In this document: one piece after another, positions 2,717 through 17,918 of the stretch | Position numbering within the stretch: position 1 is the first letter of the stretch | How the letters are laid out: each line of letters opens with the position of its first letter | Assembly (NCBI GenBank): GCA_964648105.1 | Contig: CAZYMH010000002.1 | Location: 118,101 to 182,100, forward strand | DNA length: 64,000 nucleotides | Direction: 5' to 3' | Source: an uncultured Candidatus Saccharibacteria bacterium | GTDB taxonomy: Bacteria; Patescibacteriota; Saccharimonadia; Saccharimonadales; 2-12-FULL-41-12 | Notes under the pieces: generated by a model | What the model was told of the DNA's origin: nothing | The model's input: only the letters and a program-made list of their open reading frames with translations | Databases searched by the model: none | Made by a program: the position numbers and the translations under genes

Positions 2717-2738
2717 TTAATACATACAAATTATAAAT

Positions 2739-2762
2739 AACCCCTGTGAATTCACAGGGGTT
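2739..2762. terminator. Perfect palindromic hairpin, probable bidirectional intrinsic terminator
   Basis: AACCCCTGTGAATTCACAGGGGTT is flanked by A/T-rich runs on both sides, immediately after the 2468-2716 stop codon. Confidence 0.6.
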
Positions 2763-2780
2763 ATTTGTTTGGGTTAAGTG

Positions 2781-2936
2781 AGAAAGGAAGGAAGAGAGAG
2801 GGATTCGCCCCATCTGTCAAAAAGCTTTGCTTTTTGCAGCTCGGCAGGTCTCACGGTTTGCCGAATATCGGCAAACATCGTTCCGACCGTTCGAATCCCA
2901 CGAAAGCCAAGCAGTTGGCTTTCTTCTTTCCTCTCC
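2781..2936. other. Unannotated, highly structured ~155-nt element with tRNA-Ser-like termini (candidate ncRNA, MITE or tRNA-derived relic)
   Basis: An 18-nt purine/pyrimidine closing helix pairs 2781-2798 with 2919-2936. A perfect 8-bp helix pairs 2800-2807 with 2892-2899. Three perfect hairpins lie at 2818-2836, 2857-2875 (extendable to 2847-2888) and 2902-2923. It is visibly more GC-rich than the flanking AT-rich backbone. There is a 15-nt identity (2793-2807) to the tRNA-Ser T-arm/acceptor. Confidence 0.4.
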
Positions 2937-2984
2937 ACCAAAACTAAAAACCCACCCACAAGGGGCGGATTCTTAGTTTGGCGG
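2937..2984 (-). other. Displaced 3' trailer and terminator hairpin of tRNA-Ser(UGA), preceded by CCGCCA (attL side of element 1)
   Basis: The minus-strand sequence CCGCCAAACTAAGAATCCGCCCCTTGTGGGTGGGTTTTTAGTTTTGGT matches 45 of 48 aligned columns of the CCGCCA+trailer of tRNA-Ser(GCU) at 33867-33912. Confidence 0.75.
2979..2984. repeat. TGGCGG junction core, left copy (element 1)
   Basis: The same hexamer is found at 19708-19713. It lies exactly at the AT-rich to GC-rich transition. Confidence 0.6.
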
Positions 2985-3091
2985 CCCTCGCGCGATTGAG
3001 GTTGAACCTGAACACCCCGTCCCAATCCGCTTCGCCCCGACCTAGACGCGATCGCGCCAATCGTGGGTAGCCGGGGCTAATCTCTGCGGGT

Positions 3092-3706
3092 ATGGCCGAG
3101 GATCTCGTTGGGCTCCGAGGCGGCGCCGAGCTTGGCGTTACCGCCCTCGCTGCTGCGATCGACCGCATCCATAGCGCGAACGCCAATCTCCTCCGAGGTG
3201 GCGGAGCTGCTCCGACCGCCGCTGCATTGGGGGAAGGGTTGTTCTGGATCGCTGCTCTCGACGACTTCTTTGTCAGCGCCCAACCACCAGGCGTCTACAG
3301 GCGATCCCGAGCGAGTGACACACGAGGGCAGACGGTCGGCGGGCTGATCTACGCGCGGAACGGCCTCGGGCATGGTCTCCACATCGCTGCCGCCGTGCGA
3401 ACTGTGGTGCACTCCCCGACGGTGGTGAAGAGAGACGGACAGGTCACTGTCCAATGGGCTCGTCTTCCCGGTCGCGAATATGGCGCACCGAATCGCGGGA
3501 CCGTGCTCTCGATGCAGTTTGTCTGGGCTGAGCCCGACGTCCTGCCCGTAGCGCCCGGCCGCCAGCACGGGCGGGACCTTTGGTACCGCGACCGTGTGTC
3601 CGGGCGTCCGCTAACCCAACCCCTGACGGTGGGTCTGGACTGGTTCCGCGCCCAGCGGACTTGGCTCCGGGCGTTCGCTCCAGCCGTGCCCACGCCCGCC
3701 GAATAA
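3092..3706 (+). CDS. Hypothetical protein with a possible HEPN-like RNxxxH motif
   Basis: 204-aa ORF with protein-like composition, unlike the overlapping Arg/Pro-rich alternative frames. The motif YARNGLGHG lies at codons 88-96. Confidence 0.45.
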   Translation: MAEDLVGLRGGAELGVTALAAAIDRIHSANANLLRGGGAAPTAAALGEGLFWIAALDDFFVSAQPPGVYRRSRASDTRGQTVGGLIYARNGLGHGLHIAAAVRTVVHSPTVVKRDGQVTVQWARLPGREYGAPNRGTVLSMQFVWAEPDVLPVAPGRQHGRDLWYRDRVSGRPLTQPLTVGLDWFRAQRTWLRAFAPAVPTPAE

Positions 3707-3831
3707 CCCGTGGAGAGCATCGCGGTGACGCCACGGGGGCCGCGACTGGCCCATCAGGTCCGGTCGCCAGCCTGAGATCCAGCTTCCGGGCACGTACACC
3801 TCCCGTCCAGGCAGCGCGCTATCCTCGAAGG

Positions 3832-3963
3832 GTGTCTAACGACTCCGAAAAAGAGCCGGATCCTCCTCCGCCCCCGCCAGCTCCGCCCGAGCCACGCCCG
3901 GACGGTCTTCAGTTGATACAGGAGAGCGATCAGCGGCCCCGAGAGACTCGTGAGCAGCGATAA
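3832..3963 (+). CDS. Proline-rich micro-protein, paralog 1 (43 aa)
   Basis: GTG start 6 nt after a TATCCT -10-like hexamer. It shares VS(N/S)D..., PPEPRxDGL and RPxExRxxR-stop with the next ORF, with synonymous-type DNA differences. Confidence 0.4.
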   Translation: MSNDSEKEPDPPPPPPAPPEPRPDGLQLIQESDQRPRETREQR

Positions 3964-4120
3964 GGACGAGGGCACCCAGCCTAAGCCGGCGGCCACCCCT
4001 TCGGGAGCCAAGCGACCAGCGCCTACGCCCCCTGAGCCGAGGGCAGATGGCTTGAAGACGGTTATCGGAAACGTCTTATGGGAGCCGATCCGGCCCAAGG
4101 AGGACCGTTCGGAGCGCTAG
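3950..4120 (+). CDS. Proline-rich micro-protein, paralog 2 (56 aa)
   Basis: GTG start overlaps the end of paralog 1 in the +1 frame. Same three conserved blocks as 3832-3963. Confidence 0.4.
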   Translation: MSSDKDEGTQPKPAATPSGAKRPAPTPPEPRADGLKTVIGNVLWEPIRPKEDRSER

Positions 4121-4920
4121 AGGTACGGCTCGACGGCAATCAGGGCGAGCAGGTGAAGAACCTGCACGGCCAAGGCGGACATGGCCAGTCGAGCCCAAAG
4201 GGTCTTCGCACCGTCCGTGATCTTGGACCTCCTCGCCGCTTCGGCCCGAAGCGCTACGAGCTGAGCTTGAAAGTCCTGCGGGTTCTGGTAGTAGTCCGCG
4301 TACGCCATCTGTTGCAGACCCTGAGCGTCAAGCAGAACCTGGTGCTCCGTGAGCCGCCAGTCTCCGAGCGCACAGAACGCGGTGAGCGCAAACAGGAGGA
4401 GATTGGTGCCCAACAGGACAGCCATGGCGTGGTCACCATCGGATCGTGAATAGACGGTACTCGCCGCCCCGGCGGCGACGGCCGCAAAGGTGAGAACTTG
4501 CTGACCGCGCGCCGTCAGGTGGCGGGCGTGGGTCAAGCGCCGCTCGTCTGCCCTTGCCGACTCTTGGTCGAGCAGCGCAAGCGTCCCCGCCGACATCACT
4601 GCTTCACCCTTCGGATCCGGGTGAGACTGGGCTTCAGCCGGATTGACCTCGCCAGCAGCCTTCTCGAATTCGTCTCGGCTGACGGCTTTGGCATGCGCCG
4701 GCAGGGTGACGAGCAGCGCGACGGTCGCCAGAAGGAAAGCGAGAGCACCGCTCCCCGCGCAAAGGACGACCGCTCCAGGTCGTGGGACCAGTACCACCAT
4801 GCCGATGGCGACCGCCGAAGCTCCCGCAGCGGCAGCACCAACTGCCACCGACGAACGTTCTTGGGAGACCAGCCAGGCATCCAGCTTTGTCCACACGGCC
4901 TCCAGAGTAGCGGGAACCAC
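4117..4920 (-). CDS. Polytopic membrane protein, unknown function
   Basis: 267 aa with about 5 hydrophobic helices separated by charged loops. GTG start is the first start after the upstream stop. Confidence 0.55.
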   Translation of the reverse strand: MVPATLEAVWTKLDAWLVSQERSSVAVGAAAAGASAVAIGMVVLVPRPGAVVLCAGSGALAFLLATVALLVTLPAHAKAVSRDEFEKAAGEVNPAEAQSHPDPKGEAVMSAGTLALLDQESARADERRLTHARHLTARGQQVLTFAAVAAGAASTVYSRSDGDHAMAVLLGTNLLLFALTAFCALGDWRLTEHQVLLDAQGLQQMAYADYYQNPQDFQAQLVALRAEAARRSKITDGAKTLWARLAMSALAVQVLHLLALIAVEPYL

Positions 4921-4998
4921 GCGGTCGGCGACTTCCGGGTCGTTGACGGCTGAACCCTCCGCCAGCTGGCCAGCTTCACCACGACGTGGCGTCGTTGG

Positions 4999-5496
4999 TC
5001 ACCAGCGTTCGGGATTCTCCTGACTGGTGTTCGCCGAGACCAATCGGAGATTGGGCGCAAGCCGGAATCTATGCTCGTGACGTTCGATGTAAGCCGATAG
5101 GGCCGTGAGCGCTTCCTCCGCAGCCTCGACCGCCGCCTTGCGGTTCTCGGACCCGGCTCCGATGATCTCGGCTAGCTCGATCTGCACATACGCGGCAGCG
5201 ACGGTCGCGAAGGTGTCGTTGTCAATGAGTGGCGTGAGAGACACCCCGTGATCGCGCCAGCAGTAGCGCTCCGGTCGGAAGGAGCGGGCAAGTCTTAGTC
5301 GATTGAAGTGAGAGGTCTCCGCGAACGCGTCCAGACGGACGCGATTCCGCGCCAGTTCTTGCACGATCAGCTTCGCCGCGGCGACACTCTGGGTTCGCTG
5401 TTGATGGTTGGTGGCGAAATATCCGCCGAGCGTGGTCGCCCCTCCGCCCACCAAAGCTCCGAGGATGGCGGCGAATGCTTCAGAAGAGAAGGACAC
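4999..5496 (-). CDS. Membrane-anchored helical protein, unknown function
   Basis: 165 aa with an N-terminal glycine-rich TM helix (AFAAILGALVGGGATTLGGYF) followed by a helical soluble part. Same strand as, and adjacent to, 4117-4920. Confidence 0.5.
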   Translation of the reverse strand: MSFSSEAFAAILGALVGGGATTLGGYFATNHQQRTQSVAAAKLIVQELARNRVRLDAFAETSHFNRLRLARSFRPERYCWRDHGVSLTPLIDNDTFATVAAAYVQIELAEIIGAGSENRKAAVEAAEEALTALSAYIERHEHRFRLAPNLRLVSANTSQENPERW

Positions 5497-5605
5497 GGGT
5501 CAGCCTTGGGTCATGTCGACTCAGTTGGGTGCCCCCGCCGCCTCACCACCGAGCGGGGGCACCCGTGAGGCCGAGCTTCCGTTGGTGCTCAGCGACCTCG
5601 TCCTG

Positions 5606-5785
5606 CTAGCGCCGGGTGGCGTCCACCAGGACGTACCCGATCTCCCCGGGGCGGGTCGGCGGGAAGGGCTCGCCCTTCACGCACGTCACCTCCCGCGTCT
5701 TGCGGTAGCTGGAATCCACCGCGGCGTACTGGCCACTGATCGGCACAGTCTGGCCGGGGCGGTACAGCGTCTTGGAAGTCGTCAT
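5606..5785 (-). CDS. YjzC-like small protein (59 aa, below ORF-track cutoff)
   Basis: ATG preceded by AGGAGG. Translation is MTTSKTLYRPGQTVPISGQYAAVDSSYRKTREVTCVKGEPFPPTRPGEIGYVLVDATRR. The PGQ..P.SGQY...EVT..KGEPFPPT pattern matches the YjzC family. Confidence 0.6.
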   Translation of the reverse strand: MTTSKTLYRPGQTVPISGQYAAVDSSYRKTREVTCVKGEPFPPTRPGEIGYVLVDATRR

Positions 5786-6133
5786 AGGTCCTCACCTCCT
5801 TCCTGGCAGCAATGCCGTGATCTGGTGATCCGCGAGGGTCTCGGCCGTCCAAATCGGACGGGTGGTGATGAGGCTGTCCCGCGCAGTTCTGCAAGCGTAC
5901 CGACAGGGTCGGACGCACTGAGGCGCGGATGCGCAAGCGGCTCGGTCACCACACCAAGCCGCTCGGCGATCACCAGTCACAGCTGCACCAGGAACAGGCC
6001 CCCAGGCGACTGTGGTCGCGAAACTACTTGGTCAGTCGGACGATTCCTCCATGACGTTCGACGTCTCGCTGTGGCCGAAATGTCACCACGGGGGTCGAGG
6101 ACCTTCATCCGGCATGCCAACTAGGCTTCCGCC

Positions 6134-7435
6134 ATGGAGCCAGTGGGAGTGGTCGACCTGTTCTGTGGTGCCGGCGGCCTGTCTGAGGGCTTTCGCGCTG
6201 CAGGAGCCCGGATTCTGGCCGGGACCGACCACGACCCAGATGCCTGCGCGACCTACGCCGCCAATTTCCCGGAGGCGATCGTGGTGTGCGGCGACGTCCG
6301 GGAGCCGGCGATCAGAGAGCGCATTCTGGACGCGGCCGCAGGGGCTCGGGTCGTAGTCGGAGGCCCTCCGTGCCAGGCGTTTTCGCAGGTGCGGAACCAC
6401 GTCCGGATGATCGACGACCCCCGGAATGCGCTCTATCGCGAGTTCGTCGGGATTGTGGATCAGCTCGAACCGGACATCTTCGTGATGGAGAACGTCCCCG
6501 GCATGGACCAGATGGGCGTCCGCGACCAGGTCCTTGCCGACCTGGAGCTCGACGGGCACTACGTGGTCAGGGCTCGACTGCTTGATGCCGTCGACTTTGG
6601 GGTCCCACAGACCAGGAAGCGCATCGTCTTCGTCGGCGTGCGCAGCGACCTGGCTGTGGAGCCGCCCGTCGTCGCTGGTACGGGAGTCGTCGACACCCTG
6701 ACCCTTGCACGCCGGAATGGGACCGAGCCGGTGCACTATGAGGTTCAGGGACCGGGGAGTGGGCTGGCTGCCTGGCAGGAGCGCCTCGTCGACCCCAGGG
6801 ACCTGAGCGTCGTCACGGCCGCTCAGGCGATCGGTGACCTGGCCGCGCTGACTGCGGGCGAGCGGCGTGACAGTCGGCCGACGATCGATTTGGGTCCGGC
6901 GTTGTCGGCCTACCAGGAACTGATGCGTCGAGGCTTGGGGTCCGAGATCACAAACGTCAGCGTTCCTCGGACGAATGCCGACACGGTTCTCCGCCTGAAT
7001 GGCGTCCCGCAGGGCGGGAATCACCGGGACCTGGCTGACGAGCTTCGAGAGCGGTACCTGACGGGGCAGCGCTGGGGGCCAGATGCCGGCAATGGACGCC
7101 TGTCGCGGAGGCACTACTACGCCTACCGGCGTCTGCATCCCGACTTCTGGTCCTGGACGCTCAATACCAAGGCCGACTCCGTCTACCACTACGCCGCAGC
7201 CCGGGCGCTCAGTGTCCGGGAGTTCGCGCGGCTCCAGTCGTTCCCGGATCGCTTCACGTTCACCACGGACGGCCGACGCGGTCCTTTGCCAGGTCGTATT
7301 GAGGGCGGGGCAGCCCACAGTCGCTACCGCCAGGTCGGGAACGCCGTCCCGCCGCTGCTCGCGCAGGCCATCGCCCAGTCGGTGCTCGCGGCGCTCACTG
7401 AGATCCCGGTCCGGAGTGTGGAGACGCTTGCCTGA
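6134..7435 (+). CDS. DNA (cytosine-5)-methyltransferase
   Basis: Motif I DLFCGAGGLSEGF, motif IV GGPPCQAFS, motif VI ENV, motif X QVGNAVPPLLA. Confidence 0.92.
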   Translation: MEPVGVVDLFCGAGGLSEGFRAAGARILAGTDHDPDACATYAANFPEAIVVCGDVREPAIRERILDAAAGARVVVGGPPCQAFSQVRNHVRMIDDPRNALYREFVGIVDQLEPDIFVMENVPGMDQMGVRDQVLADLELDGHYVVRARLLDAVDFGVPQTRKRIVFVGVRSDLAVEPPVVAGTGVVDTLTLARRNGTEPVHYEVQGPGSGLAAWQERLVDPRDLSVVTAAQAIGDLAALTAGERRDSRPTIDLGPALSAYQELMRRGLGSEITNVSVPRTNADTVLRLNGVPQGGNHRDLADELRERYLTGQRWGPDAGNGRLSRRHYYAYRRLHPDFWSWTLNTKADSVYHYAAARALSVREFARLQSFPDRFTFTTDGRRGPLPGRIEGGAAHSRYRQVGNAVPPLLAQAIAQSVLAALTEIPVRSVETLA

Positions 7436-8477
7436 CAGCCTGACGGAGGCGCTCCAGCGCCCCTTCGGCGCAGCGAGCCGCAAAGAGCTCCTCGAGGAGT
7501 ACTTCGCCTCGGCGGGTTCGATCACCGCAGACAACGCCTGGCAGCACGTCTACCGGTTGCTGCTCTGGACGGACCAGACGACCGGACTGGCCCACTGCTA
7601 CGAGAGCGACAAGACGCAGCCCGGCCGGCCCTGGTACGCGCGGTCGCTGGCGTTCCATGGATGGGCAGCGGATCAACTCGGGTCGTCGCCGGCCGAGCTG
7701 TCGTTGGCGATCGACTGGCTGTTCCGGCGGGGCACCGAACGTCTGACTGAAGCGCTCGCGTCTCGGGAGGGACGGCTGGCGAAGCAGGCCGCCAAACAGC
7801 GCACCGGGTTCGAGGACTACCCGGTCCCAGGAGAGGATCCGGAGCTTGAGAAGTTGCTCTTGGAGGACTTCGGCGGGTGGCTGCGGGAGAGGCCTTCGGA
7901 AGAAGCACTCCTCGCCATCACTCGTCGTCTGGGCGCCTACTTCCGCCTAGAGAACAAGCGAAAGAACCTCGTTGGGGAGGGGTTCGAGGACGTCCTGCAA
8001 GCCCTCGTCCTCCGGTTGCGCACCAGCTCGACGGTCTTCGTGATGGTTCGCCCCGTCCTCCACGACGTCCCGGGGTTCCGACACCCACCGGCAAACGAGA
8101 AGCCCCGGAAGGTTGATCTGGTGATCATCACCCAGACCGGCAGGCGCATCTTGGTCTCTGCCAAGTGGAGTGTCCGGGCCGACCGGGAGGAGCAGTTCGA
8201 GGTCGACTATGCGACCTATGCTCGGTTGGAGGAGCACGGCGAAGACTTCGACTTCGTCCTGATCACCAACGAGTTCGATGCCGCTCGACTCGGAGCCGCC
8301 TGCGATCGCCGCCGAGAGGGGCGGGCCCTCTTCTCGTCCGTCGTTCACGTGAACCCAGAAGGTCCGCTCGCAGCCTACGGCTCCGAGCTTCGACGGTCGG
8401 CTGAGCGCCTGCCCGTACTGGTCGAGAGCGGCCGACTGGCTAGCCTTGGGGCATGGCTCAAGAGCCTGGAGCTGTAG
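7416..8477 (+). CDS. Putative type II restriction endonuclease (PD-(D/E)XK-like), start uncertain (GTG 7416 or TTG 7428)
   Basis: It overlaps the methyltransferase stop and sits between the M gene and vsr. The pattern EGFEDVL...KVDLVI...VSAKWSVR is consistent with a D...(D/E)xK core. The ORF-track N-terminal extension from 7083 lies inside the M gene in another frame. Confidence 0.55.
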   Translation: MWRRLPDSLTEALQRPFGAASRKELLEEYFASAGSITADNAWQHVYRLLLWTDQTTGLAHCYESDKTQPGRPWYARSLAFHGWAADQLGSSPAELSLAIDWLFRRGTERLTEALASREGRLAKQAAKQRTGFEDYPVPGEDPELEKLLLEDFGGWLRERPSEEALLAITRRLGAYFRLENKRKNLVGEGFEDVLQALVLRLRTSSTVFVMVRPVLHDVPGFRHPPANEKPRKVDLVIITQTGRRILVSAKWSVRADREEQFEVDYATYARLEEHGEDFDFVLITNEFDAARLGAACDRRREGRALFSSVVHVNPEGPLAAYGSELRRSAERLPVLVESGRLASLGAWLKSLEL

Positions 8478-8911
8478 GCCGGACGATGCCGACGCCTGGC
8501 CGGTCGCGGAACATGGCGGCCATTCGAAGCAAGGACACCAAGCCGGAGCTTCTCTTGCGGCGGGCACTCTGGGCCGCGGGTCTGCGGGGCTACCGGTGCC
8601 ATCATCCTGGCTTGCCCGGGAAACCGGACATCGCCTTCACCAAGCAGAAGGTAGCGATCTTCGTCGACGGGGCCTTCTGGCATGGCCACCCCGAGCACTT
8701 CGCGTTCGGGAAGCTGGGCGCGTACTGGGACGAGAAGGTGAGGCGAACCCAAGAGCGGGATCGGCTTCAGCAGGAAGCGCTAAACGCTTTGGGCTACCGA
8801 GTACTGCGGTTCTGGGACTTCGAACTCCAAGTCAGCACCCGTCCTGCGGTTGAGCGTATAACGGCAAGACTCACCGGTCGAAAACTAGCTGGCGCCCGCA
8901 GATCGAATTGA
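8453..8911 (+). CDS. vsr: Very-short-patch repair endonuclease
   Basis: RSRNMAAIRSKDTKPELLLRRALWAAGLRGYR...GKPDIAF...VAIFVDGAFWHGHP is the Vsr signature. The true start may be the ATG at 8486. Confidence 0.9.
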   Translation: MAQEPGAVGRTMPTPGRSRNMAAIRSKDTKPELLLRRALWAAGLRGYRCHHPGLPGKPDIAFTKQKVAIFVDGAFWHGHPEHFAFGKLGAYWDEKVRRTQERDRLQQEALNALGYRVLRFWDFELQVSTRPAVERITARLTGRKLAGARRSN

Positions 8912-9328
8912 TCGAAACGTATCGGGTGCGACACTGATGCGAAGGGTTCCATCAGCAGCGCGCGAGAAGCTGCTATTGCCGACTGCGTCCAATGAAATCC
9001 GCCCCAGAGCCAGGGCTCGAATCGCTTCAAGAGCCTCCAGGCCTTCGGGACCGTCAAGACTCACGCCATCGCCATCGCCATCGCCATCGGCGTCGCCATC
9101 TGCCGGCTCGGGGTCTGCGTCTGCGTAAGGATCGTCGTCCAGGGCGTCCGGAAACGCACGCAGGTATTTTTCTAGCTCCGGCGCCATAATCCCGGTTCGC
9201 TTCTTGGCTGCTCGATAGAGAGCAGCAAGGTTCGCTTCATCTACGGCGGGCACGGCAACTACCTCAAACCCCATCTCCTCGGCACTAGCCTGCTCGGCCG
9301 TTCTCCGAACCCACTGCCAGCCTAGCAT
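8885..9328 (-). CDS. Acidic protein with (DG)n repeat, unknown function
   Basis: 147 aa with a central DDDPYADADPEPADGDADGDGDGDG tract. It has its own AT-rich upstream region (9329-9395). Confidence 0.45.
   Translation of the reverse strand: MLGWQWVRRTAEQASAEEMGFEVVAVPAVDEANLAALYRAAKKRTGIMAPELEKYLRAFPDALDDDPYADADPEPADGDADGDGDGDGVSLDGPEGLEALEAIRALALGRISLDAVGNSSFSRAADGTLRISVAPDTFRSIRSAGAS
9065..9100. repeat. Hexanucleotide tandem repeat (GCCATC)4-GGCGTC-GCCATC
   Basis: Read directly from the sequence. It encodes the DG repeat of the 8885-9328 ORF on the minus strand. Confidence 0.8.
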
Positions 9329-9395
9329 GTCACCCTTTCAGATTTATTCATATTCTCTCACTATACACACCTGCGCCCGTGATTGCAACTTATGC

Positions 9396-10259
9396 CTACA
9401 CCGCGAGTGAGCTCGCCATAGTCCTAGCGAGCTCCGCAAGACGAGCTTGCGCTTTCGCATCTTCGGTGAGCGGTGTCGATCCGCGCAGGCAGCTGTTAGC
9501 ACTAATACTCACGCAGCCGATAGCTTCGCCGCTATCAGCGTCGTGAACAATCTGAGCGATCACATAACGGTACTTTGCGGCAAGGGCAACTGCTTCCTCG
9601 CGACTGAGGCCGTGAGTACGCGCTGGCCCAAGAGCTGCCCATGCCTGGTCGGAGCCCAACGCCGAGGCGTAGGGCTCCTTGGTCGTGTCGAGACCAAGAC
9701 AGGCCGCTTCTACGTCGTCATCCGTTACGCCCGCAAGGCACGCGCCGACGATTCCTCGCCCCTTCGCGAAGCGAATATTGGTTGGAGCCGGCTTAACGAG
9801 GGCGGCTGCGGCTGCGCGTCCCAACGTTGGTCGAAGAGCGTATTTGGCAAGCCTCGCCCACCGGGGGGTGGATGCCCGCCTTCGCAACCACTGGCGGAGC
9901 CGGAAGGGAAAGAGGCGGCGGTACCAGACCGGCACCTCCCAAACATGTACCACGACATTCAATGTCACCGGCCCCAGTCGCCTATTTTTGCACACAGCGA
10001 GAAGCGTCTCCTGCGCTAGGGCGTGAATGCGATCTCCTCTAAGGGGCCGCTTTGGCCGAACAAACTGCAGCAACACACGCGCGCGTTGAATCGCTGCAGC
10101 TGCTCCCAAGACTATGGCTGAGCCAACTCCCGTCCACGACACAGGCGATAGGCTGAGCGAAAGCGAGATGGCGAATGCTGCAACGACGATGGCAATGCCG
10201 ACGGACGCGCCGATGAGACGACCCGGGGTCACAGCGACGTCTCCCGACAGCCGCTCCAT
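9396..10259 (-). CDS. Two-TM membrane-anchored protein with GAF-like C-terminal domain
   Basis: The N-terminus has two hydrophobic helices. The C-terminus has KGRGIVGACLAG and a terminal ...IAQIVHDADSGEAIGCVSISA pattern resembling GAF domains. Confidence 0.4.
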   Translation of the reverse strand: MERLSGDVAVTPGRLIGASVGIAIVVAAFAISLSLSLSPVSWTGVGSAIVLGAAAAIQRARVLLQFVRPKRPLRGDRIHALAQETLLAVCKNRRLGPVTLNVVVHVWEVPVWYRRLFPFRLRQWLRRRASTPRWARLAKYALRPTLGRAAAAALVKPAPTNIRFAKGRGIVGACLAGVTDDDVEAACLGLDTTKEPYASALGSDQAWAALGPARTHGLSREEAVALAAKYRYVIAQIVHDADSGEAIGCVSISANSCLRGSTPLTEDAKAQARLAELARTMASSLAV

Positions 10260-10278
10260 CGACTCATGGTGAGATCAC

Positions 10279-10779
10279 TCACTCGCGTATCCGATTCACG
10301 ACGTAGAACGGCATCCCGGAGTGTTGCTCAAATCCGAGTCGAATCAGTGCATGGTGAAGCTCTTGATTGAGTTGAGTGATGCACGCCACCCCACGGAGTG
10401 GAGATTCCGGGCGACGACGGTTGAGGCTGTCGGCGAAGTCGAAGCCATGTCTTACCAGCCGGGCAAATGCTGGGGTATTCTGGAACGCCCTATCTACACC
10501 AACGGCAGGGACGAGCAGATAGCGCCCTATCGCATCTGATCCTGGAACGGTCAGTTCAATCTCGGAGAGAGCGATGTAGGCGATGACCTCGCGATCGGGT
10601 CTTGCCAGGGCGTAGGCGGTTGCGCCGCCGCCGGATAGGAGCTCGGAGTGGAGAGCACGAAGCTCCGCGTTGAACGCCTCGCTTCCACAATCAAAGCGAT
10701 CGACTATGTGGTGCGTGCAGAGATTCTCCAGGTTGAGATCAGATGGCAGCAAGAAAGGCGTCCCTATCCCATTCCCCAA
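10279..10779 (-). CDS. GNAT-fold protein resembling TacT/KacT-type acetyltransferase toxins (acetyl-CoA motif degenerate)
   Basis: The N-terminal DRFDCGSEAFNAELRAL matches the F-x-C-G-x-x-x-L-N/D-x-x-L signature. The later VGVDRAFQNTPAFARLV lacks the usual Q/RxxGxG/A. Confidence 0.5.
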   Translation of the reverse strand: MGNGIGTPFLLPSDLNLENLCTHHIVDRFDCGSEAFNAELRALHSELLSGGGATAYALARPDREVIAYIALSEIELTVPGSDAIGRYLLVPAVGVDRAFQNTPAFARLVRHGFDFADSLNRRRPESPLRGVACITQLNQELHHALIRLGFEQHSGMPFYVVNRIRE

Positions 10780-11566
10780 CCCGCGCCAGTCGGTACCGCA
10801 GCTCCCGTGCCTGCGCCTCGGTCACCTCGCCGCTCCATCCGGCGAGCCGGATCAGTCCTTCGGCGCTGAACTCCGCCTCGCCGTGGAGGATGGCGCTGCC
10901 GTAACGCACCAAGTAGCGGTCGAGGTTGGTCAAGAGCCGAGCCAGGAACCACAGGGCGCCGCCAGCCGCCTCTTGGAAGCGGGCGTCCTCGCCTTCGACG
11001 TCCCGCCACCGTTCTCGCTCGATGAGCTCGGCCCGGAGTCCGTAGACATCGCTCCAGATCCGGCTCAGGAGCACCTCGTGCTCAGCGCGCTCCGGATCTG
11101 CGAGGTCTTCGGGCTCGATCGTCGGGGTATCGCCGGAGGCTTCGGCGGGAGGCTGCTTCCGTCCCCGGGGCACGTACGTCAGCGAGTCCTGGTGCAGGAG
11201 CCACGCGAGGTCACTCAGGATCTTGGGCTCGATGCGCTTCCGAAAGTGGTCGGCGTCGTAGCCAAGGGCTGAAGCGGCGCTCTGGCGCCGGGTGGTCAGG
11301 TTCTGGCCACTGGTGCCGCCAATGCCGAAGAGCGCCTGTGCTGCCGCCTGACGGTCCCGTCCCCCGGGGAGCCGGCGCAGCTGCTGTCGAGCGAGCTTGT
11401 CGAGGGCGGCGACTTGGGCCAGCTGATCGTCCGGGTTCACCGCTCGGGCTGCAACGCCTCGCAGATCGAGGAGGCGCTCATCAGCGGTGTCGGGGGTGAT
11501 AGGCAAGCCGCGTCTCAGGGTCGTCCGGAGGGCGGAGACGAGCGGATCGAGGTCCGGTTCGGCCAT
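10739..11566 (-). CDS. Hypothetical protein (275 aa), first gene of cargo operon
   Basis: The internal ATG at 11566 is preceded by GGAGGAG. The ORF-track extension up to 11773 is Arg/Pro/Cys-rich and unlikely to be coding. The gene overlaps the GNAT gene start by 41 nt. Confidence 0.5.
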   Translation of the reverse strand: MAEPDLDPLVSALRTTLRRGLPITPDTADERLLDLRGVAARAVNPDDQLAQVAALDKLARQQLRRLPGGRDRQAAAQALFGIGGTSGQNLTTRRQSAASALGYDADHFRKRIEPKILSDLAWLLHQDSLTYVPRGRKQPPAEASGDTPTIEPEDLADPERAEHEVLLSRIWSDVYGLRAELIERERWRDVEGEDARFQEAAGGALWFLARLLTNLDRYLVRYGSAILHGEAEFSAEGLIRLAGWSGEVTEAQARELRYRLARVGEWDRDAFLAAI

Positions 11567-11752
11567 CTCCTCCGTCCAGTTGCGGTTCAGCGGCGCAACC
11601 GTACTACGGGCGGCGGCCGTTCCGAACCTGGACGGACGAGCAGGACGCCCAGGATGTGCCCACTCGCACGCCTGGAGAGTGCCCAGTCCCGGGTCGCATC
11701 CTCTGGCCCAGATCGGTTCAACAGGAGAACCGCACGGGCTGGCGAGGGATGC

Positions 11753-12061
11753 ATGTCGAACCTCATTCCCCAAGGTCTTGGGCCTTCGGGTCTGCCTGCC
11801 CGGGTGGAGCGTCAGCTCTCCCGGCAGGTGGCCACGATTCAGGCCAGGGCGGTCGTTCAGGCGGCTCAGCAGTCGTCGAAGGTGGCGGTGATCGAGGAGG
11901 TGGTGGAGTCGGCGATGCTGGCTACCGCCCGTGTCGGTCAGCTGGAGGGGCTGCTTAGTGCCCAGACTCCGGAGGTTGCCGGGCGGCTGCGGTTCATCGC
12001 TGAGGCCGGCGCCCTCGGGATGGGCGGGGTCGTCCAGCAGACCGCCCGGAAGGTGATGTAG
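11753..12061 (+). CDS. Hypothetical protein (102 aa), first gene of transfer-side operon
   Basis: ATG within the 11414-12061 frame. Ala/Gln-rich helical sequence. It is followed 2 nt later by the next ORF. Confidence 0.45.
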   Translation: MSNLIPQGLGPSGLPARVERQLSRQVATIQARAVVQAAQQSSKVAVIEEVVESAMLATARVGQLEGLLSAQTPEVAGRLRFIAEAGALGMGGVVQQTARKVM

Positions 12062-12063
12062 CC

Positions 12064-12285
12064 ATGTTCATCCTGGGCTTCATCGTTGGGGCTGTGGTGA
12101 TCGCCGCGGTGTTCGTCGCCCTGGTGCACCTGGTCGGGCGGAACGAGGAGTCGCCGCAGATGGCGGCGCTGTTGGCCCGTCGCCGGATCGATGAGCTGGA
12201 GCGGCAGACGATCGCGCGGATGCTGCGTGAGGCGGAGATCCAGCGTGGCTTTGGCGGTGACTTCATCGAATCGGACGCCTCATGA
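12064..12285 (+). CDS. Small single-TM protein
   Basis: MFILGFIVGAVVIAAVFVALVHLV... followed by a charged tail. ATGA overlap with the next ORF. Confidence 0.5.
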   Translation: MFILGFIVGAVVIAAVFVALVHLVGRNEESPQMAALLARRRIDELERQTIARMLREAEIQRGFGGDFIESDAS

Positions 12286-12440
12286 AGCTCTACGGCCCAC
12301 TGGTTCAAGGGCTCCTGGTGCTCATGGTCTTTGCCGTGGCGGTGCGAGCGGTGTGGGAGCTGCTCGCACCGGCCCTGATGCCCATGAGCATCGTGGCCGT
12401 GGTGGTCACCGCCCTCGTGGCGCTATGGAAGCGACGGTGA
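12282..12440 (+). CDS. Small two-TM protein (52 aa, below ORF-track cutoff)
   Basis: MKLYGPLVQGLLVLMVFAVAVRAVWELLAPALMPMSIVAVVVTALVALWKRR. Start is coupled (ATGA) to the previous stop. Confidence 0.45.
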   Translation: MKLYGPLVQGLLVLMVFAVAVRAVWELLAPALMPMSIVAVVVTALVALWKRR

Positions 12441-12662
12441 CGCGTGCTCGCGCCGAGCGTTCACAAGGCCTGTATGGAGCGCGTTCACCGCTTCGAGCCG
12501 GTGCTTGTTGTCAATTCCACATGCACAAACGTCTTGACTGTCGTGCGTGTGCGACGCATAACAACAAGTAGGGGTTGTCCATGTTGGGCATCGCACCGCA
12601 GGAGTGTGCGGCGGGCGGTGGGCATGGACGCCCCTTGTATGTGTAAGTGGAGGGACTCATGG

Positions 12663-13247
12663 ATGAGACAGATCGAGGAGGGGAACGGACTCCCTGAAGG
12701 GCTGGCGGTACCGACCGCCGATCAGGTGTTCATGGAGCTGCAGCTGGTCACCCGGCGGCTGCGCAGCGTGCAGCGGCTCATCGGGCCGCTGGCGGTCAGC
12801 GAAGCCGGTCCGGAGTGGGCCGAGCTGCAGGAGCACTGTCAGGTGGCGCTGGGCGCACTCAGCGTGGCCGGGGCGATGGTGCCGGATGCGCTGCCCGAGC
12901 ATGAGCGGACTTCGCGTGTCCTGGTCGTCCGGGATCTGACAGTGGATCAGCATGCTCACCGGGCATGGTTCGGAGAGCAGGAATTGGAGCTGGCCGGGTT
13001 GGAGTTCGGCCTGCTCGGCGCCTTGGCAATCGACCCGCTGCGCGTCCGTTCCAAGCAGGAGCTGCTGCGCAGCGTGTGGGGGTATCGCGGCACGCCGCGT
13101 ACCCGCACGGTGGACAGCCACGCCTCGCGGCTTAGGCGAAAGCTCATCGACGCTGGTGCCGGGGGCCATGAGTGGGTGGTCAACCAGTGGGGCGTCGGAT
13201 ACGCCCTGCTGCGGCCAGCCGAGATCTCCGGGGAGGTGCCCCGGTGA
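12663..13247 (+). CDS. Winged-helix (OmpR/Trans_reg_C-type) DNA-binding protein
   Basis: GGAGGG lies 8 nt before the ATG at 12663. The C-terminus LELAGLEFGLLGALAIDPLRVRSKQELLRSVWGY...RTVDSHASRLRRKL...VVNQWGVGYAL is a Trans_reg_C pattern. Confidence 0.7.
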   Translation: MRQIEEGNGLPEGLAVPTADQVFMELQLVTRRLRSVQRLIGPLAVSEAGPEWAELQEHCQVALGALSVAGAMVPDALPEHERTSRVLVVRDLTVDQHAHRAWFGEQELELAGLEFGLLGALAIDPLRVRSKQELLRSVWGYRGTPRTRTVDSHASRLRRKLIDAGAGGHEWVVNQWGVGYALLRPAEISGEVPR

Positions 13248-13420
13248 CCCGACGCAGTGTTCGCGTGCGCCCCATTCCGAGAACCAACGTCGATGTGCCG
13301 AGGCTCAGCCGGGCGCTGTTGGCCATGGCGCGGGAGCTGGAGGCACAGGCCGACGAGGACGCTGCCCAGGCCCGGGAGCAGCAGGTAACGGTGTCGCCTT
13401 CGACGGAGGAGGCGGCGTGA
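13244..13420 (+). CDS. Small hypothetical protein (58 aa)
   Basis: GTG start overlaps the previous stop (GTGA), and its own stop overlaps the next GTG start. Confidence 0.4.
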   Translation: MTRRSVRVRPIPRTNVDVPRLSRALLAMARELEAQADEDAAQAREQQVTVSPSTEEAA

Positions 13421-15669: not shown

Positions 15670-16619
15670 GCGCCGATCGCTCTACCGGTCGCGTTGAGTC
15701 CGCTGCGAGCGGATCACCTTGGTCACGCGGCTCCGCCGCGCTTAAGGCCGCCGACTACTACCGAAGTGTTCCTGGTCGTTCTTCATCGGGACGGCGGCTG
15801 AGCGCCCGGCGGTTGGTGCTCATCGCTGAGGAGCTGTCGGAGCGGGACGACGCGGTCCTGCAGGCGTTGGCGCGGGTGCGGGTCCTGACGGGTGCTCAGC
15901 TTGAGCGTCTGCTGTTCTCCGACATCGCGGTGGCTTCCCGTGGGCGGACGCGGCGGCGGGTACTCGGGCGTCTGGTGGACCTGGGGCTGGTGGTCACCTT
16001 GGAGCGCCGCATCGGCGGGGTTCGCGCCGGGTCGGCAGGGCTGGTTTACGGACTCTCGGGCGCGGGACAGAAACTGGCCGGGCGGGCGGTGGCCGGTGGG
16101 TCTTCGCCTCGGCCCAGAACCACGGCCACGCCCTCGGCCTTGTTTCTGGCCCACGCCCTGGCGGTCGCCGAAGCGTACGTCGCCACCATGGAAGCGCTGC
16201 GGGGAGTCCCTGGGGTGGCGCTCGCCGGGTTCGACGTGGAGCAGAACGCCACCTGGCCGACGGGGCGTGGGCCGAAGGACCTCCTCCGGCCGGACGCCCT
16301 GGTGGTGCTGACCCGGGAGGAAGTCTCGGACGTCTGGTGGCTGGAGGTCGACCGGGACACCGAGAGCCTGCCAAGGATCGTCCGCCTGCTGCGGCGCTAC
16401 CTGGCGTTCGCCCGCTCCGGACAGGCGGGACCGCGTGGCGTGGTCCCGAGGATGCTGCTCAGTGTCCCCAGCCCGGACCGCCTGGCAGGCGTGCAGACCG
16501 AGATCGCCCGGCTGCCGGCGCCAGCCGCGCAGCTGTTCGCGGTCTGCATGGAGTCCGAGGTGGCTGCGCTGCTGGTAAGCGAGATTTTGGACGACGGCTC
16601 ACCAGTAAGGGAGGCGTAG
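15666..16619 (+). CDS. Replication-relaxation family protein (putative relaxase/initiator of the element)
   Basis: LTGAQLERLLFSD...RRVLGRLVDLGLVVTLERRIGGVRAGSAGLVYGLSGAG matches the Replic_Relax winged-helix N-terminus. GTGA coupling to the T4CP gene. Confidence 0.65.
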   Translation: MSADRSTGRVESAASGSPWSRGSAALKAADYYRSVPGRSSSGRRLSARRLVLIAEELSERDDAVLQALARVRVLTGAQLERLLFSDIAVASRGRTRRRVLGRLVDLGLVVTLERRIGGVRAGSAGLVYGLSGAGQKLAGRAVAGGSSPRPRTTATPSALFLAHALAVAEAYVATMEALRGVPGVALAGFDVEQNATWPTGRGPKDLLRPDALVVLTREEVSDVWWLEVDRDTESLPRIVRLLRRYLAFARSGQAGPRGVVPRMLLSVPSPDRLAGVQTEIARLPAPAAQLFAVCMESEVAALLVSEILDDGSPVREA

Positions 16620-17916: not shown

Positions 17917-17918
17917 CG

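What the first reader, a model, noticed from the sequence alone, without database searches (positions are those of the whole stretch)
2781..2936. Unannotated ~155-nt multi-helix element with tRNA-Ser-like ends beside the integration site
A segment lies between the GlsB-gene terminator and the displaced tRNA trailer. It is visibly more GC-rich than the AT-rich backbone, which is a hallmark of structured RNA genes in AT-rich genomes. It folds into nested helices. An 18-position purine/pyrimidine closing helix pairs 2781-2798 with 2919-2936 (16 of 18 pair if G-U is allowed, on either strand). A perfect 8-bp helix pairs GGGATTCG at 2800-2807 with CGAATCCC at 2892-2899. There are three perfect hairpins at 2818-2836 (8 bp), 2857-2875 (8 bp, extendable to 2847-2888) and 2902-2923 (9 bp). 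Read on the minus strand it begins GGAGAGG, the tRNA-Ser 5' acceptor, and ends ...CGAATCCCTCTCTCTTCC. It shares a 15-nt identity (2793-2807) with the tRNA-Ser T-arm/acceptor. It is therefore neither a normal tRNA nor any ncRNA I recognise. Options are a tRNA-like structured RNA, a MITE with imperfect terminal inverted repeats, or the scar of an older tRNA-Ser-targeting element.
Basis: seen in the sequence. Interest (0 to 1): 0.6.

Follow-up and report, generated by a model that had tools for sequence, protein, structure and literature searches.

The report
Hairpin-rich insertion module behind tRNA-Ser

Summary
The host is a Saccharibacteria (CPR) genome. A 16.7-kb, 67% GC island carrying a serine recombinase lies between tRNA-Ser(tga) and its terminator, so the element originally lay directly behind that tRNA.

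It is not a tRNA, a tmRNA or any Rfam family. It has relatives. In 80 related genomes, 13 of 85 tRNA-Ser genes and 7 of 37 tRNA-Arg genes are followed by:
- a terminator;
- a 117-200-nt hairpin-rich body that starts with an inverted copy of the T-arm (GGGATTCGAAC);
- an exact repeat of the tRNA's own 3' end, starting at T-loop position 56.

The fold is conserved by compensatory changes (43 of 58 pairs). Bodies of the same class occur behind both Ser and Arg tRNAs. Bodies of different classes stack in tandem behind a single tRNA. Copies also form arrays in viral contigs.

Best reading (about 0.5): an ORF-less, non-autonomous insertion module that targets the tRNA T-loop/3' end; the window's copy is partly decayed. 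Main rival (about 0.25): a structured RNA made by read-through from the tRNA. The recombinase, the intermediate and any transcript are untested.

The parts
19708..19797 (-). tRNA-Ser(tga), the gene behind which the element originally lay. Its 3' 21 nt are CGAATCCCTCTCTCTCCGCCA.
   Evidence: ARAGORN and Rfam RF00005 at 59.7 bits. Sequence.
2985..19707 (.). A later, unrelated insertion: a 16.7-kb, 61-71% GC (~67%) integrative island with a large serine recombinase at 17919-19802 (ORF as listed; probably ends ~19700). It separates the tRNA from its own terminator and from the element. TGGCGG is present at both junctions (2979-2984 and 19708-19713).
   Evidence: Composition. Junction sequences. 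Pfam hits for Resolvase + Recombinase + Zn_ribbon_recom, Replic_Relax, a T4SS coupling/FtsK-like ATPase, Peptidase_M78 and a C5 methylase.
2938..2984 (-). Trailer and intrinsic terminator of tRNA-Ser(tga), with the hairpin at 2954-2970 and the CCA end at 2979-2984. It is nearly identical to the terminator behind tRNA-Ser(gct) at about 33873-33911.
   Evidence: Terminator scan, inverted repeat I2 and trailer comparison.
2781..2936 (-). The element itself, read in the same sense as the tRNA: closing helix, 5' hairpin, T-arm-mimicking helix, two inner hairpins, and a partial repeat of the tRNA 3' end.
   Evidence: Folds. Covariance model R1 and its homologues. Covariation counts.
2922..2936 (-). 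5' arm of the closing helix (GGAGAGGAAAGAAGA). Its first 7 nt equal the tRNA-Ser 5' acceptor strand, i.e. the complement of the tRNA 3' acceptor strand.
   Evidence: In the family alignment this helix is only 79-84% paired.
2902..2923 (-). 5' hairpin (9 bp) whose loop region carries AACUGCUU, conserved in subgroup A (window, L125, L084, L254, L232, L307).
2888..2899 (-). Inverted copy of the T-arm (minus strand GGGATTCGAAC, the bottom strand of GGTTCGAATCCC). Its first 8 nt form the universal helix with 2800-2807; AAC stays unpaired.
   Evidence: (helix 5 is almost invariant).
2847..2888 (-). Inner hairpin domain 1: a 9-bp perfect core at 2856-2876, enclosed by ACG/CGU and GGUC/GACC.
   Evidence: Helices 6 and 7 covary (14 of 16 pairs with double changes).
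2814..2840 (-). Inner hairpin domain 2 (GCAAAAAGC-AAA-GCUUUUUGAC), with an 8-bp perfect core at 2818-2836.
   Evidence: Helix 9 is 98.8% paired with 10 of 11 pairs covarying.
2793..2807 (-). Repeat of the tRNA-Ser 3' end (CGAATCCCTCTCTCT, T-loop position 56 onward). The first 8 nt pair with 2892-2899. The rest of the repeat (CCGCCA) has decayed to TCCTTCC.
   Evidence: Intact versions ending in GCCA occur in L049, L055 and L064.
2781..2795 (-). 3' arm of the closing helix, a pyrimidine tract.
2735..2766 (.). Perfect 16+16 palindrome. It is the terminator of the convergent Transgly_assoc gene (2468-2716, +) and also scores as a terminator on the minus strand, just behind the element.

Best explanation
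The element is one copy, partly decayed at its 3' end, of a family of gene-less insertion modules of about 150-200 bp that target the 3' part of tRNA genes.

A complete unit, read in the tRNA's sense, has four parts:
- the tRNA 3' end from T-loop position 56 to the discriminator or CCA;
- an intrinsic terminator;
- a body that opens with an inverted copy of the T-arm (GGGATTCGAAC) and holds two or three near-perfect hairpins;
- the next copy of the tRNA 3' end.

Inferred mechanism. The unit enters by site-specific recombination in the T-loop/3' region of the tRNA gene, as tRNA-targeting integrative elements do. It brings its own replacement 3' end and terminator, so the tRNA stays intact, and it pushes the previous 3' end downstream. 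Because it has no gene, it must depend on a recombinase encoded elsewhere. The inverted T-arm copy pairs with the following direct copy. On a single strand the body therefore folds into a multi-hairpin knob closed by a duplex that imitates the T-arm of the target. I take this duplex to be the recombination or recognition site, by analogy with folded single-stranded sites such as integron attC or the CTX-phage attP.

What is shown: the family, its anatomy, the repeats, its conserved fold, its association with different tRNAs, and the tandem stacking.

What is inferred: the recombination step, the nature of the intermediate (double-stranded, single-stranded DNA, or RNA), the enzyme, and whether the window's copy is still mobile (probably not).
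For: 1. Homologues always lie behind a tRNA gene plus terminator and end in a repeat of that tRNA's 3' end. This was seen by nhmmer and motif searches and in metagenome loci L125, L133, L147, L161, L176, L194, L195, L206, L211 (two copies) and L222.
2. Unbiased count in 80 Saccharibacteria loci plus the window: 13 of 85 tRNA-Ser and 7 of 37 tRNA-Arg genes carry such a unit. Repeats are 15-33 nt and inserts 117-200 nt. Units of the same layout behind tRNA-Tyr (L209) and tRNA-Leu (L144) lack a detectable inverted T-arm copy.
3. The repeat matches the adjacent tRNA, including the C/T variant at position 66 and Ser versus Arg acceptor sequences.
4. The distribution over orthologous tRNA-Ser(cga) loci is sporadic: about 14 of about 47.
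5. The same body class occurs behind Ser and Arg tRNAs, for example L062-Ser with L022/L064-Arg, and L064-Ser(cga) with L043-Arg.
6. Different body classes stack in tandem behind one tRNA, with more decayed repeats distally (L060, L049, L062). This is the accretion pattern expected of repeated site-specific insertion.
7. L022 and L064 share a nearly identical terminator together with the body, while the terminators beyond the second repeat differ. The terminator therefore travels with the body.
8. Where the left copy is not a tRNA (viral contigs L084, L254, L307), only CTCCCTCTCCG is shared on the left, while the right copy keeps CGAATCC. The core is therefore carried by the element.
9. In L222 a tyrosine integrase with an arm-binding domain lies 180 bp beyond the repeat and terminator. 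This core is therefore used by integrase-bearing islands.
10. The fold is conserved: 92.5% of cells are paired and 43 of 58 pairs have double changes. None of 500 shuffles reaches this, and slid controls give 34-53% paired.
11. Pairs are 89% Watson-Crick, and G.U (14) is barely more frequent than A.C (8). Hairpins are near-perfect with 3-4-nt loops. This is typical of DNA palindromes or single-stranded DNA sites rather than evolved RNAs.
12. No promoter-like site adjoins the element, and a terminator precedes it.
Against: - No recombinase has been tied to the family. Apart from L222, no integrase lies next to the units, and that integrase has no homologue near the others.
- No empty and filled pair of otherwise near-identical loci was recovered, so insertion has not been seen directly.
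- A double-stranded circle of about 170 bp is an awkward recombination substrate.
- The terminator behind the window's tRNA-Ser(tga) is almost identical to the one behind tRNA-Ser(gct), which carries no element. That fits a native terminator as well as an element-borne one.
- In L176 the repeat runs 14 nt into the trailer.
- The tRNA-sense strand is predicted to fold better in 14 of 16 members, some hairpin loops are sequence-conserved (AACUGCUU; GCCAGUGGC), and viral contigs hold arrays in which each unit has its own terminator. All of these would also suit an RNA product.
- The alignment used for covariation was fitted to the model's structure.
Confidence: 0.5

Rival explanations
1. A structured non-coding RNA made in the tRNA's sense, by read-through of the tRNA terminator or from an unrecognised promoter. 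Its helix built from tRNA 3'-end sequence would serve as a handle for tRNA-processing enzymes (RNase P, RNase Z, CCA-adding enzyme) or for a protein that binds tRNA ends. This could be a tRNA-end mimic or decoy, possibly of phage origin.
For: - The fold is conserved with many compensatory changes.
- The tRNA-sense strand is more stable in 14 of 16 members.
- Loop sequences are conserved (AACUGCUU in subgroup A; GCCAGUGGC in several classes).
- Several copies end exactly like the tRNA...CTCTCCGCCA, and are followed by their own terminator (L049, L055, L064, L195, L222).
- Subgroup-A copies begin with GGAGAG, which can pair with the CTCTCC end (window, L307).
- Arrays of units each followed by a terminator occur in viral contigs without any tRNA (L232/L307, L254, L084).
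Against: - No sigma-70-like promoter adjoins the element, and a good terminator lies directly upstream.
- Acceptor-like pairing of the ends is not conserved. In most members the last 8-12 nt are unpaired, and Arg-linked units have no acceptor complement.
- The window, L007, L044 and L031 copies have lost the GCCA end, and L031 has even lost the universal helix.
- G.U pairs are as rare as A.C mismatches.
- The distribution among orthologous loci is sporadic.
- There is no Rfam family, tRNA or tmRNA call.
Confidence: 0.25
2. It is not mobile. In this view it is a local by-product of tRNA-gene duplication and palindrome growth: partial tandem duplication of the tRNA 3' half plus its terminator, with arms extended by template switching at the terminator hairpin. 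It is now a decaying, functionless spacer that also acts as extra terminators.
For: - The tRNA 3' end, the terminator and the inverted copy form one long palindrome.
- The repeat sometimes includes trailer sequence (L176, 33 nt) or a whole 207-nt unit (L068).
- The window and L031 copies are visibly decaying.
- One hairpin scores as a plus-strand terminator (2902-2923), and the palindrome at 2735-2766 terminates both strands.
Against: - Homologous bodies occur behind different tRNAs (Ser, Arg), in different genomes, and in viral contigs without a tRNA.
- Two different body classes lie in tandem behind one tRNA.
- Nested helices covary across members whose sequences are otherwise dissimilar.
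- Unit size is narrowly distributed across classes.
- Local slippage does not explain a shared, conserved architecture.
Confidence: 0.12
3. A conventional MITE: a deletion derivative of an insertion sequence, moved by a DDE transposase that binds its terminal inverted repeats.
For: - The ends are imperfect inverted repeats (GGAGAGG...GGGATTCG / CGAATCCC...CTCTCC).
- There is no ORF and the size is 150-200 bp.
- Several copies occur in one genome in L211/L206.
Against: - No target-site duplication flanks the inverted ends.
- The 'inverted repeat' changes with the neighbouring tRNA (Ser versus Arg), so it is target-derived sequence and not a transposase site.
- Copies are tied to tRNA 3' ends, not dispersed; the window has a single copy in 64 kb.
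- No transposase was seen nearby.
Confidence: 0.05

Closest known systems
tRNA-gene fragments (attL/attR direct repeats) left by tyrosine-integrase islands and prophages, and cis-mobilizable elements (CIMEs: att-flanked elements without recombination genes). Named from my own knowledge of the literature.
   Same: - A direct repeat of the tRNA 3' end that starts in the T-loop.
- The tRNA is kept intact.
- Tandem accretion behind one tRNA.
- Dependence on a recombinase in trans.
- One family member abuts an integrase-bearing island (L222).
   Different: - The whole unit is only about 150-200 bp, roughly the size of an attP site alone.
- It carries no gene.
- Its body is a conserved multi-hairpin fold closed by an inverted T-arm copy, which is not a feature of classical attP arms.
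- No integrase is linked to it.
Folded single-stranded recombination sites: integron attC sites (and ORF-less cassettes) and the CTX-phage attP(+) hairpin used by XerCD.
   Same: - An imperfect long-range stem formed by two inverted boxes recreates a duplex like the target site. The inner end of the 5' box reads AAC, as in the attC R'' box.
- There are unpaired bases at the inner end of the stem and a variable, branched terminal structure.
- The unit boundary lies at the inner end of the stem.
- The newest unit is next to the primary site and older ones are pushed distally.
   Different: - The R''/R' consensus (RYYYAAC / GTTRRRY) is not met.
- The repeat lacks the GTT that an attC-type crossover would leave.
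- No IntI-like integrase, attI or Pc promoter is present, and the target is a tRNA T-arm.
- This is an analogy, not a membership claim.
REPINs/REP elements and MITEs (small non-autonomous palindromic repeats)
   Same: - ORF-less and about 100-200 nt.
- Near-perfect hairpins located behind terminators.
- Several copies per genome in some hosts.
- Sequence-conserved hairpin tips (TGCCAGTGGCA).
   Different: - They are strictly tied to tRNA 3' ends.
- They end in a target-derived repeat of about 20 nt.
- No RAYT or transposase partner was identified and there are no short target-site duplications.
tRNA-like RNAs (tmRNA tRNA-like domain, bacterial Y RNA YrlA, viral tRNA-like structures)
   Same: - The 3' end is identical to a tRNA's T-loop half, T-stem and acceptor strand, sometimes with GCCA.
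- The 5' motif GGAUUCGAAC recalls the conserved tmRNA 5' GGAUUCGAC (from memory).
   Different: - There is no complete T-arm, no conserved acceptor stem and no tag reading frame, and the element is far shorter than tmRNA.
- ARAGORN and Rfam models for tRNA, tmRNA and Y RNA-like families do not match.

Membership tests
tRNA | Cloverleaf with D, anticodon and T arms, detected by ARAGORN or the Rfam RF00005 model | tested here: not met
   ARAGORN finds only the four real tRNAs. RF00005 does not hit 2781-2936 even at E <= 10. The same holds for the homologue in L064.
tmRNA | tRNA-like domain with a complete T-arm and an alanine acceptor, plus a tag reading frame; detected by ARAGORN or the Rfam tmRNA models | tested here: not met
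   No tmRNA was called in the window or in loci with homologues. There is no Rfam hit. The element is only about 155 nt long.
Any Rfam 15 family | Score at or above the family's gathering threshold | tested here: not met
   The best sub-threshold hits (RefA9 at 27 bits against 49 required, snoR144, and others) align only terminator hairpins. Nothing was found for L064.
tRNA-targeting integrative element / att remnant | Direct repeat of the 3' part of the adjacent tRNA gene bounding the inserted DNA | tested here: met
   The window has a 15-nt exact repeat (2793-2807 against 19714-19728). Relatives have 17-33-nt repeats starting at position 56.
tRNA-targeting integrative element / att remnant | A site-specific recombinase encoded by the element or demonstrably acting on it | tested here: inconclusive
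   There is no ORF inside the unit. A tyrosine integrase is adjacent only in L222 and has no homologue near other units. The serine recombinase in the window belongs to a different, later island whose junctions are at the CCA end.
tRNA-targeting integrative element / att remnant | Presence/absence polymorphism with a precise empty site | tested here: inconclusive
   The distribution among orthologous tRNA-Ser(cga) loci of different species is sporadic. No near-identical filled/empty pair was found, because same-species contigs break at the tRNA and at 2764.
MITE | Terminal inverted repeats flanked by a short target-site duplication of fixed length | tested here: not met
   Inverted ends exist, but the flanks show no duplication, and the ends vary with the neighbouring tRNA.
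MITE | Many dispersed copies in the genome | tested here: not met
   The 64-kb window holds one copy, and elsewhere copies are confined to tRNA 3' flanks. Whole genomes could not be searched.
Integron attC site | R'' (RYYYAAC) and R' (GTTRRRY) boxes pairing, with the crossover at G/TT | tested here: not met
   The 5' box ATTCGAAC shares only the AAC. The 3' side reads GG|CGAATCC without GTT. No IntI was seen.
Retron ncRNA (msr-msd) | Inverted repeats a1/a2 next to a reverse-transcriptase gene | tested here: not met
   The neighbours are a tRNA and a convergent Transgly_assoc gene. No RT is present.
Conserved structured single-stranded nucleic acid (generic) | Base pairs kept by compensatory changes across homologues | tested here: met
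   92.5% of cells are paired and 43 of 58 pairs have double changes. None of 500 shuffles reaches this, and slid controls give 34-53% paired. The caveat is that the alignment was fitted to the model.
Expressed RNA gene | A discrete transcript of defined strand and ends | not testable with these tools
   No expression data are available. Only indirect points exist: no promoter-like site and better predicted folding of the tRNA-sense strand in 14 of 16 members.

The most novel reading that the evidence does not exclude
These units would be a new kind of mobile element: gene-less 'cassettes' of about 170 nt that move as a folded single strand. Their multi-hairpin knob is closed by a stem that imitates the T-arm of a tRNA gene. 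A host or phage recombinase would insert them into the T-loop of whichever tRNA gene matches the core they carry. Each cassette brings a spare tRNA 3' end and a terminator. This would be a tRNA-targeted counterpart of integron attC cassettes or CTX-type hairpin integration. It would be common in Saccharibacteria and present in other phyla and in their viruses.
Probability: 0.25. Interest if true: 0.85.

Novelty: new variant of a known kind. Interest (0 to 1): 0.62.

Why it matters
- tRNA 3' ends are the classic landing sites of genomic islands. Here about one in six tRNA-Ser/Arg genes in a sample of 80 Saccharibacteria species carries a tiny, gene-less, conserved-fold unit with the hallmarks of such an insertion, and units can stack.
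- If they are mobile, they are the smallest tRNA-targeting elements described. They would give a tractable system (a substrate of about 170 nt) for asking how recombinases read the T-arm.
- They would also explain many 'tRNA fragments' that island-finding software meets without an island.
- If instead they are RNAs, they are a new widespread class carrying a tRNA 3' end.
- Either way, annotation pipelines currently leave them blank, and they cause assembly breaks and spurious small ORFs.
- The window also records an actinomycete-type conjugative island inside a genome of an epibiont of Actinobacteria. That bears on host-to-epibiont gene flow.

Tried and rejected
- **tRNA, tmRNA or any Rfam family:** no match.
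- **Second copy in the window:** none.
- **tmRNA-like reading** (5' GGAUUCGAAC resembles the tmRNA 5' motif): dropped, because there is no T-arm, no tag frame and no model hit.
- **Aminoacylatable tRNA-like minihelix:** dropped as a general feature, because acceptor pairing is not conserved.
- **MAFFT + RNAalifold on four members:** the alignment was poor and gave no useful structure. It was replaced by a single-sequence covariance model and model-guided alignment.
- **Model hits L212, L196 and L208:** rejected as purine/pyrimidine low-complexity artefacts.
- **Viral scan with GGATTCGAAC...GGCGAATCC:** all 18 hits were antisense tRNAs or coding DNA.
- **Metagenome scan with a 16-mer:** most of the 120 hits were chance matches in GC-rich coding DNA.
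- **Viral scan for the loop motif:** mostly antisense tRNAs, with three or four true loci.
- **Empty-site search:** contigs of the same species stop at 2764 and inside the tRNA. The 84%-identical relative's contigs stop at tRNA-Ser(cga). Downstream flanks have no close match in other loci.
- **Autonomous versions (an ORF between repeats):** none. Longer-range repeats are just other tRNA-Ser genes.
- **Integrase linkage by tblastn:** negative beyond L222.
- **Cultured phages:** no match.
- **Literature searches:** nothing describing this arrangement.
- **Global pairwise identities between bodies:** not discriminating, because between-class controls gave 73-79%. I therefore rely on shared sequence blocks instead.
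- **Wobble-pair strand test:** undecided, with 14 G.U against 8 A.C.
Full report
**1. The observation**

- There are three perfect hairpins: 2818-2836, 2856-2876 and 2902-2923.
- A perfect long-range 8-bp helix pairs GGGATTCG (2800-2807) with CGAATCCC (2892-2899).
- The purine/pyrimidine closing helix pairs at 16 of 18 positions in register, against 11-12 in shifted registers.
- The segment folds far better than shuffled sequence on either strand (z = -6.8 and -7.2).
- It is 51% GC in a 39% GC genome.
- It shares 15 exact nucleotides with the 3' ends of tRNA-Ser(tga) and tRNA-Ser(gct), and it has no second copy in the window.

**2. Context**

The window comes from a Saccharibacteria (CPR) genome. 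Flanking proteins find relatives almost only in Saccharibacteria/Saccharimonadales MAGs.

Positions 2985-19707 are 61-71% GC (about 67% overall), against about 40% elsewhere. They encode a large serine recombinase, a Replic_Relax protein, an FtsK/coupling-protein-like ATPase, an ImmA-type peptidase and a C5 methylase. TGGCGG, the complement of the tRNA's CCGCCA end, is present at both junctions (2979-2984 and 19708-19713). This island therefore inserted at the very 3' end of tRNA-Ser(tga).

Before that event the order on the minus strand was: tRNA-Ser(tga), its terminator (hairpin 2954-2970), the element (2936-2781), and then the bidirectional terminator of the convergent Transgly_assoc gene.

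**3. What it is not**

- ARAGORN and Rfam (at gathering thresholds and at E <= 10) give no tRNA, tmRNA or other family for the element or for a homologue.
- No promoter-like site adjoins it on either strand.
- The ORFs that overlap it are short, overlap on both strands, and were not pursued.

**4. It has relatives, always behind a tRNA**

I fetched 80 loci from related genomes through a neighbouring protein. nhmmer and a 3' motif then found homologous elements in L031, L007, L055, L044, L064 and L049. Each lies on the same strand just downstream of a tRNA-Ser gene (anticodon cga or gct) and its terminator.

Their common plan has three parts:
- a 5' GG(G/A)GGATTCGAAC;
- two or three hairpins;
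- a 3' (A/G)GGCGAATCCCTC(C/T)CTCTCC. In L049, L055 and L064 this runs on through GCCA, an exact copy of the last 21 nt of the adjacent tRNA. Even the C/T variant follows the neighbouring tRNA.

A metagenome scan for the 3' motif added L125, L133, L147, L161, L176, L194, L195, L206, L211 (two copies) and L222. These include GC-rich organisms. Again each lies directly behind a tRNA-Ser.

A covariance model built from the window copy alone recovers the following:

| Locus | Score (bits) |
|---|---|
| L125 | 51.9 (E = 8e-9) |
| L084, first copy | 41.1 |
| L133 | 28.9 |
| L031 | 28.8 |
| L084, second copy | 27.2 |
| L176 | 23.9 |
| L161 | 22.8 |

**5. The fold is conserved**

On the model-guided alignment of eight members:
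- 92.5% of cells are paired, and 43 of 58 pairs show changes on both sides.
- None of 500 shuffles reaches the observed values.
- Sliding the partners drops pairing to 34-53%, and the covariation score falls from 0.55 to 0.05-0.12.
- The inner helices are 92-99% paired; the closing helix is only 79-84% paired.
- The GGGATTCG/CGAATCCC helix hardly varies in sequence.

Caveat: the alignment is fitted to the model.

Pairs are 89% Watson-Crick. G.U pairs (14) barely outnumber A.C mismatches (8), so wobble pairs do not identify the folded strand. RNAfold does favour the tRNA-sense strand in 14 of 16 members.

**6. A general phenomenon**

The next count ignored the internal sequence. It asked only whether a tRNA's 3' 14-mer recurs within 450 nt downstream.
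- 13 of 85 tRNA-Ser genes and 7 of 37 tRNA-Arg genes in the 80 genomes plus the window do so (one further Ser hit is simply another tRNA gene).
- Inserts are 117-200 nt and repeats 15-33 nt. The repeat nearly always starts at T-loop position 56, and in one class it has a one-base insertion.
- Units with the same repeat layout behind tRNA-Tyr (L209) and tRNA-Leu (L144) lack a detectable inverted T-arm copy.
- Among about 47 orthologous tRNA-Ser(cga) loci, roughly 14 carry a unit, and these are of several classes.

The bodies fall into classes. The window belongs to class 1, subgroup A, which has an extra 5' hairpin whose loop reads AACUGCUU.

The same class is found behind Ser and Arg tRNAs. 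For example, L062-Ser and L022/L064-Arg share GGTGAGAnATGCCAGTGGCAT and GGGGTCGC..GTGAC, and L064-Ser(cga) and L043-Arg share GAGTTTTCCnTGCTTGGC. In every case the terminal repeat matches the local tRNA.

Two different bodies can lie in tandem behind one tRNA, each followed by a repeat and a terminator, and the distal repeats are more decayed (L060, L049, L062).

**7. Anatomy and what it suggests**

The 5' motif GGGATTCGAAC(CC) is the bottom strand of the T-arm (GGGTTCGAATCCC). It is therefore an inverted copy of the T-arm, not a direct one. It pairs with the CGAATCCC that opens the following direct repeat and leaves AAC unpaired. On a single strand the body folds into a knob of near-perfect hairpins closed by a duplex that copies the target's T-arm.

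Three observations show that the core and the terminator travel with the body:
- In L022 and L064 the terminator that follows the tRNA is nearly identical and accompanies the same body class, whereas the terminators beyond the second repeat differ.
- In viral contigs (L084, L254, L232/L307) subgroup-A units occur in tandem or inverted copies without any tRNA. There the left copy of the 'core' is only CTCCCTCTCCG, while the right copy keeps CGAATCC.
- In L222 a tyrosine integrase with an arm-binding domain lies 180 bp beyond the repeat and terminator, followed by a methylase-Vsr gene. The same core therefore serves an ordinary integrase island.

**8. Interpretation**

The best-supported reading is that these are ORF-less, non-autonomous insertion modules. 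I estimate its probability at about 0.5.
- They enter the T-loop/3' part of tRNA genes by site-specific recombination.
- They bring a replacement 3' end and a terminator.
- They push the former 3' end downstream, which accounts for the repeat, the intact tRNA, the tandem accretion and the sporadic distribution.

The conserved single-strand fold and the T-arm-mimicking stem suggest a folded recombination site, as in integron attC or CTX-phage attP. That step, the enzyme and the intermediate are all inferred.

The window's copy has lost the CCGCCA part of its repeat, but it keeps the universal helix and an extended purine/pyrimidine closing helix. It is probably an old, immobile copy.

The main rival is a structured RNA made by read-through from the tRNA (about 0.25). 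It is favoured by the sense-strand folding bias, the conserved loops, and the units with their own terminators. It is disfavoured by the upstream terminator, the lack of a promoter, the non-conserved acceptor pairing, the scarcity of G.U pairs, the decaying copies, and the patchy distribution.

Local duplication with palindrome growth (about 0.12) and a classical MITE (about 0.05) fit the data less well.

**9. Limits**

- No filled/empty pair of near-identical loci was obtained.
- No recombinase is linked to the family.
- No expression data exist.
- The covariation alignment is model-fitted.
- The genome and metagenome scans were single-shot, and the metagenome scan was restricted to one 3' motif. 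The true breadth over tRNA types and phyla is therefore underestimated or biased.

Noticed in passing
window 2985-19707: A 16.7-kb island of 61-71% GC (about 67%) sits in a ~40% GC Saccharibacteria genome. It encodes a large serine recombinase (ORF listed as 17919-19802; probably ends ~19700), Peptidase_M78/ImmA (17230-17916), Replic_Relax (15666-16619), an FtsK/coupling-protein-like ATPase (12952-15669) and a C5 DNA methylase (6134-7435). This is an actinomycete-type integrative conjugative element inserted at the CCA end of tRNA-Ser(tga), with TGGCGG at both junctions. Saccharibacteria live on Actinobacteria, so it may be host-to-epibiont transfer. An assembly chimera is not excluded.
   Followed up: partly
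window 2938-2978 and 33873-33911: The terminators behind tRNA-Ser(tga) and tRNA-Ser(gct) are almost identical (AACTAAGAATCC[G/A]CCCCTT..GGGTGGGTTTTTAGTTT). The last 28 nt of the two tRNAs are also identical. Only the tga gene carries the element. This points to concerted evolution, or to a shared origin of the 3' halves and terminators.
   Followed up: partly
L084 1543-1712 (+) and 10345-10527 (-): Two inverted copies of the subgroup-A element, each with more than 150 nt of further homologous sequence, bracket an 8.6-kb segment of an IMG/VR contig. The segment encodes a MuF-C-domain protein, a WYL/WCX regulator and a GTPase. A SocA/Panacea-domain protein lies just outside it (11227-11724). The first copy ends in GGGCAAATCCAAATATT rather than a tRNA-Ser end, and it carries a compensatory change in the universal helix (GGGATTTG/CAAATCC).
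   Followed up: partly
L007, L049, L062, L064, L022, L059, L060 (hairpin tips): An 11-nt palindromic hairpin tip, TGCCAGTGGCA (variants TGCCGGTGGCA and TGCCAGAGGCA), recurs in several otherwise different body classes and occurs twice in L007. A second motif, CUGCUUGG, recurs in the window's 5' hairpin and in class 4 bodies. These look like binding sites for a common protein.
   Followed up: no
L222 4459-5739 (+), next to the element at about 5900-6100 (-): A heterobivalent tyrosine integrase (Arm-DNA-bind_4, SAM-like and catalytic domains), followed by a C5-methylase-Vsr gene, lies just beyond the element's terminal repeat and terminator. An ordinary island and a mini-unit therefore share one tRNA-Ser core.
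   Followed up: partly
L068 about 3075-3500; L211; L206: L068 carries a 207-nt perfect tandem duplication of a whole unit (tRNA 3' end + terminator + body). L211 and L206 (GC-rich organisms) have successive tRNA-Ser genes, each followed by a homologous unit.
   Followed up: no
L001/L002/L224 ends (window 2764) and L223 start (window 19735): Short-read (Logan) contigs of the same species from SRR13355620/21 stop exactly at the perfect 32-nt palindrome 2735-2766 and inside the T-arm of tRNA-Ser(tga). The element and the island are not bridged in those assemblies, so their presence there is unknown.
   Followed up: partly
L254 about 1040-1100; L307; L084 1445-1500 and about 10690-10740: A short conserved sequence, GGGGG..ACGA..ACGG(C/G)CTCCCTCTCCG (about 45-55 nt), stands where the tRNA would be, upstream of the first unit in the viral-contig arrays. 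It may be a remnant of a tRNA-Ser or a separate small module.
   Followed up: no
window 2147-2160, 2973-2984 and 33870-33885 region: The sequence TTAGTTTGGCGG (trailer plus CCA end, complement strand) recurs at tRNA-Ser(cga) and at the island junction. These are possible secondary sites for the serine recombinase.
   Followed up: no
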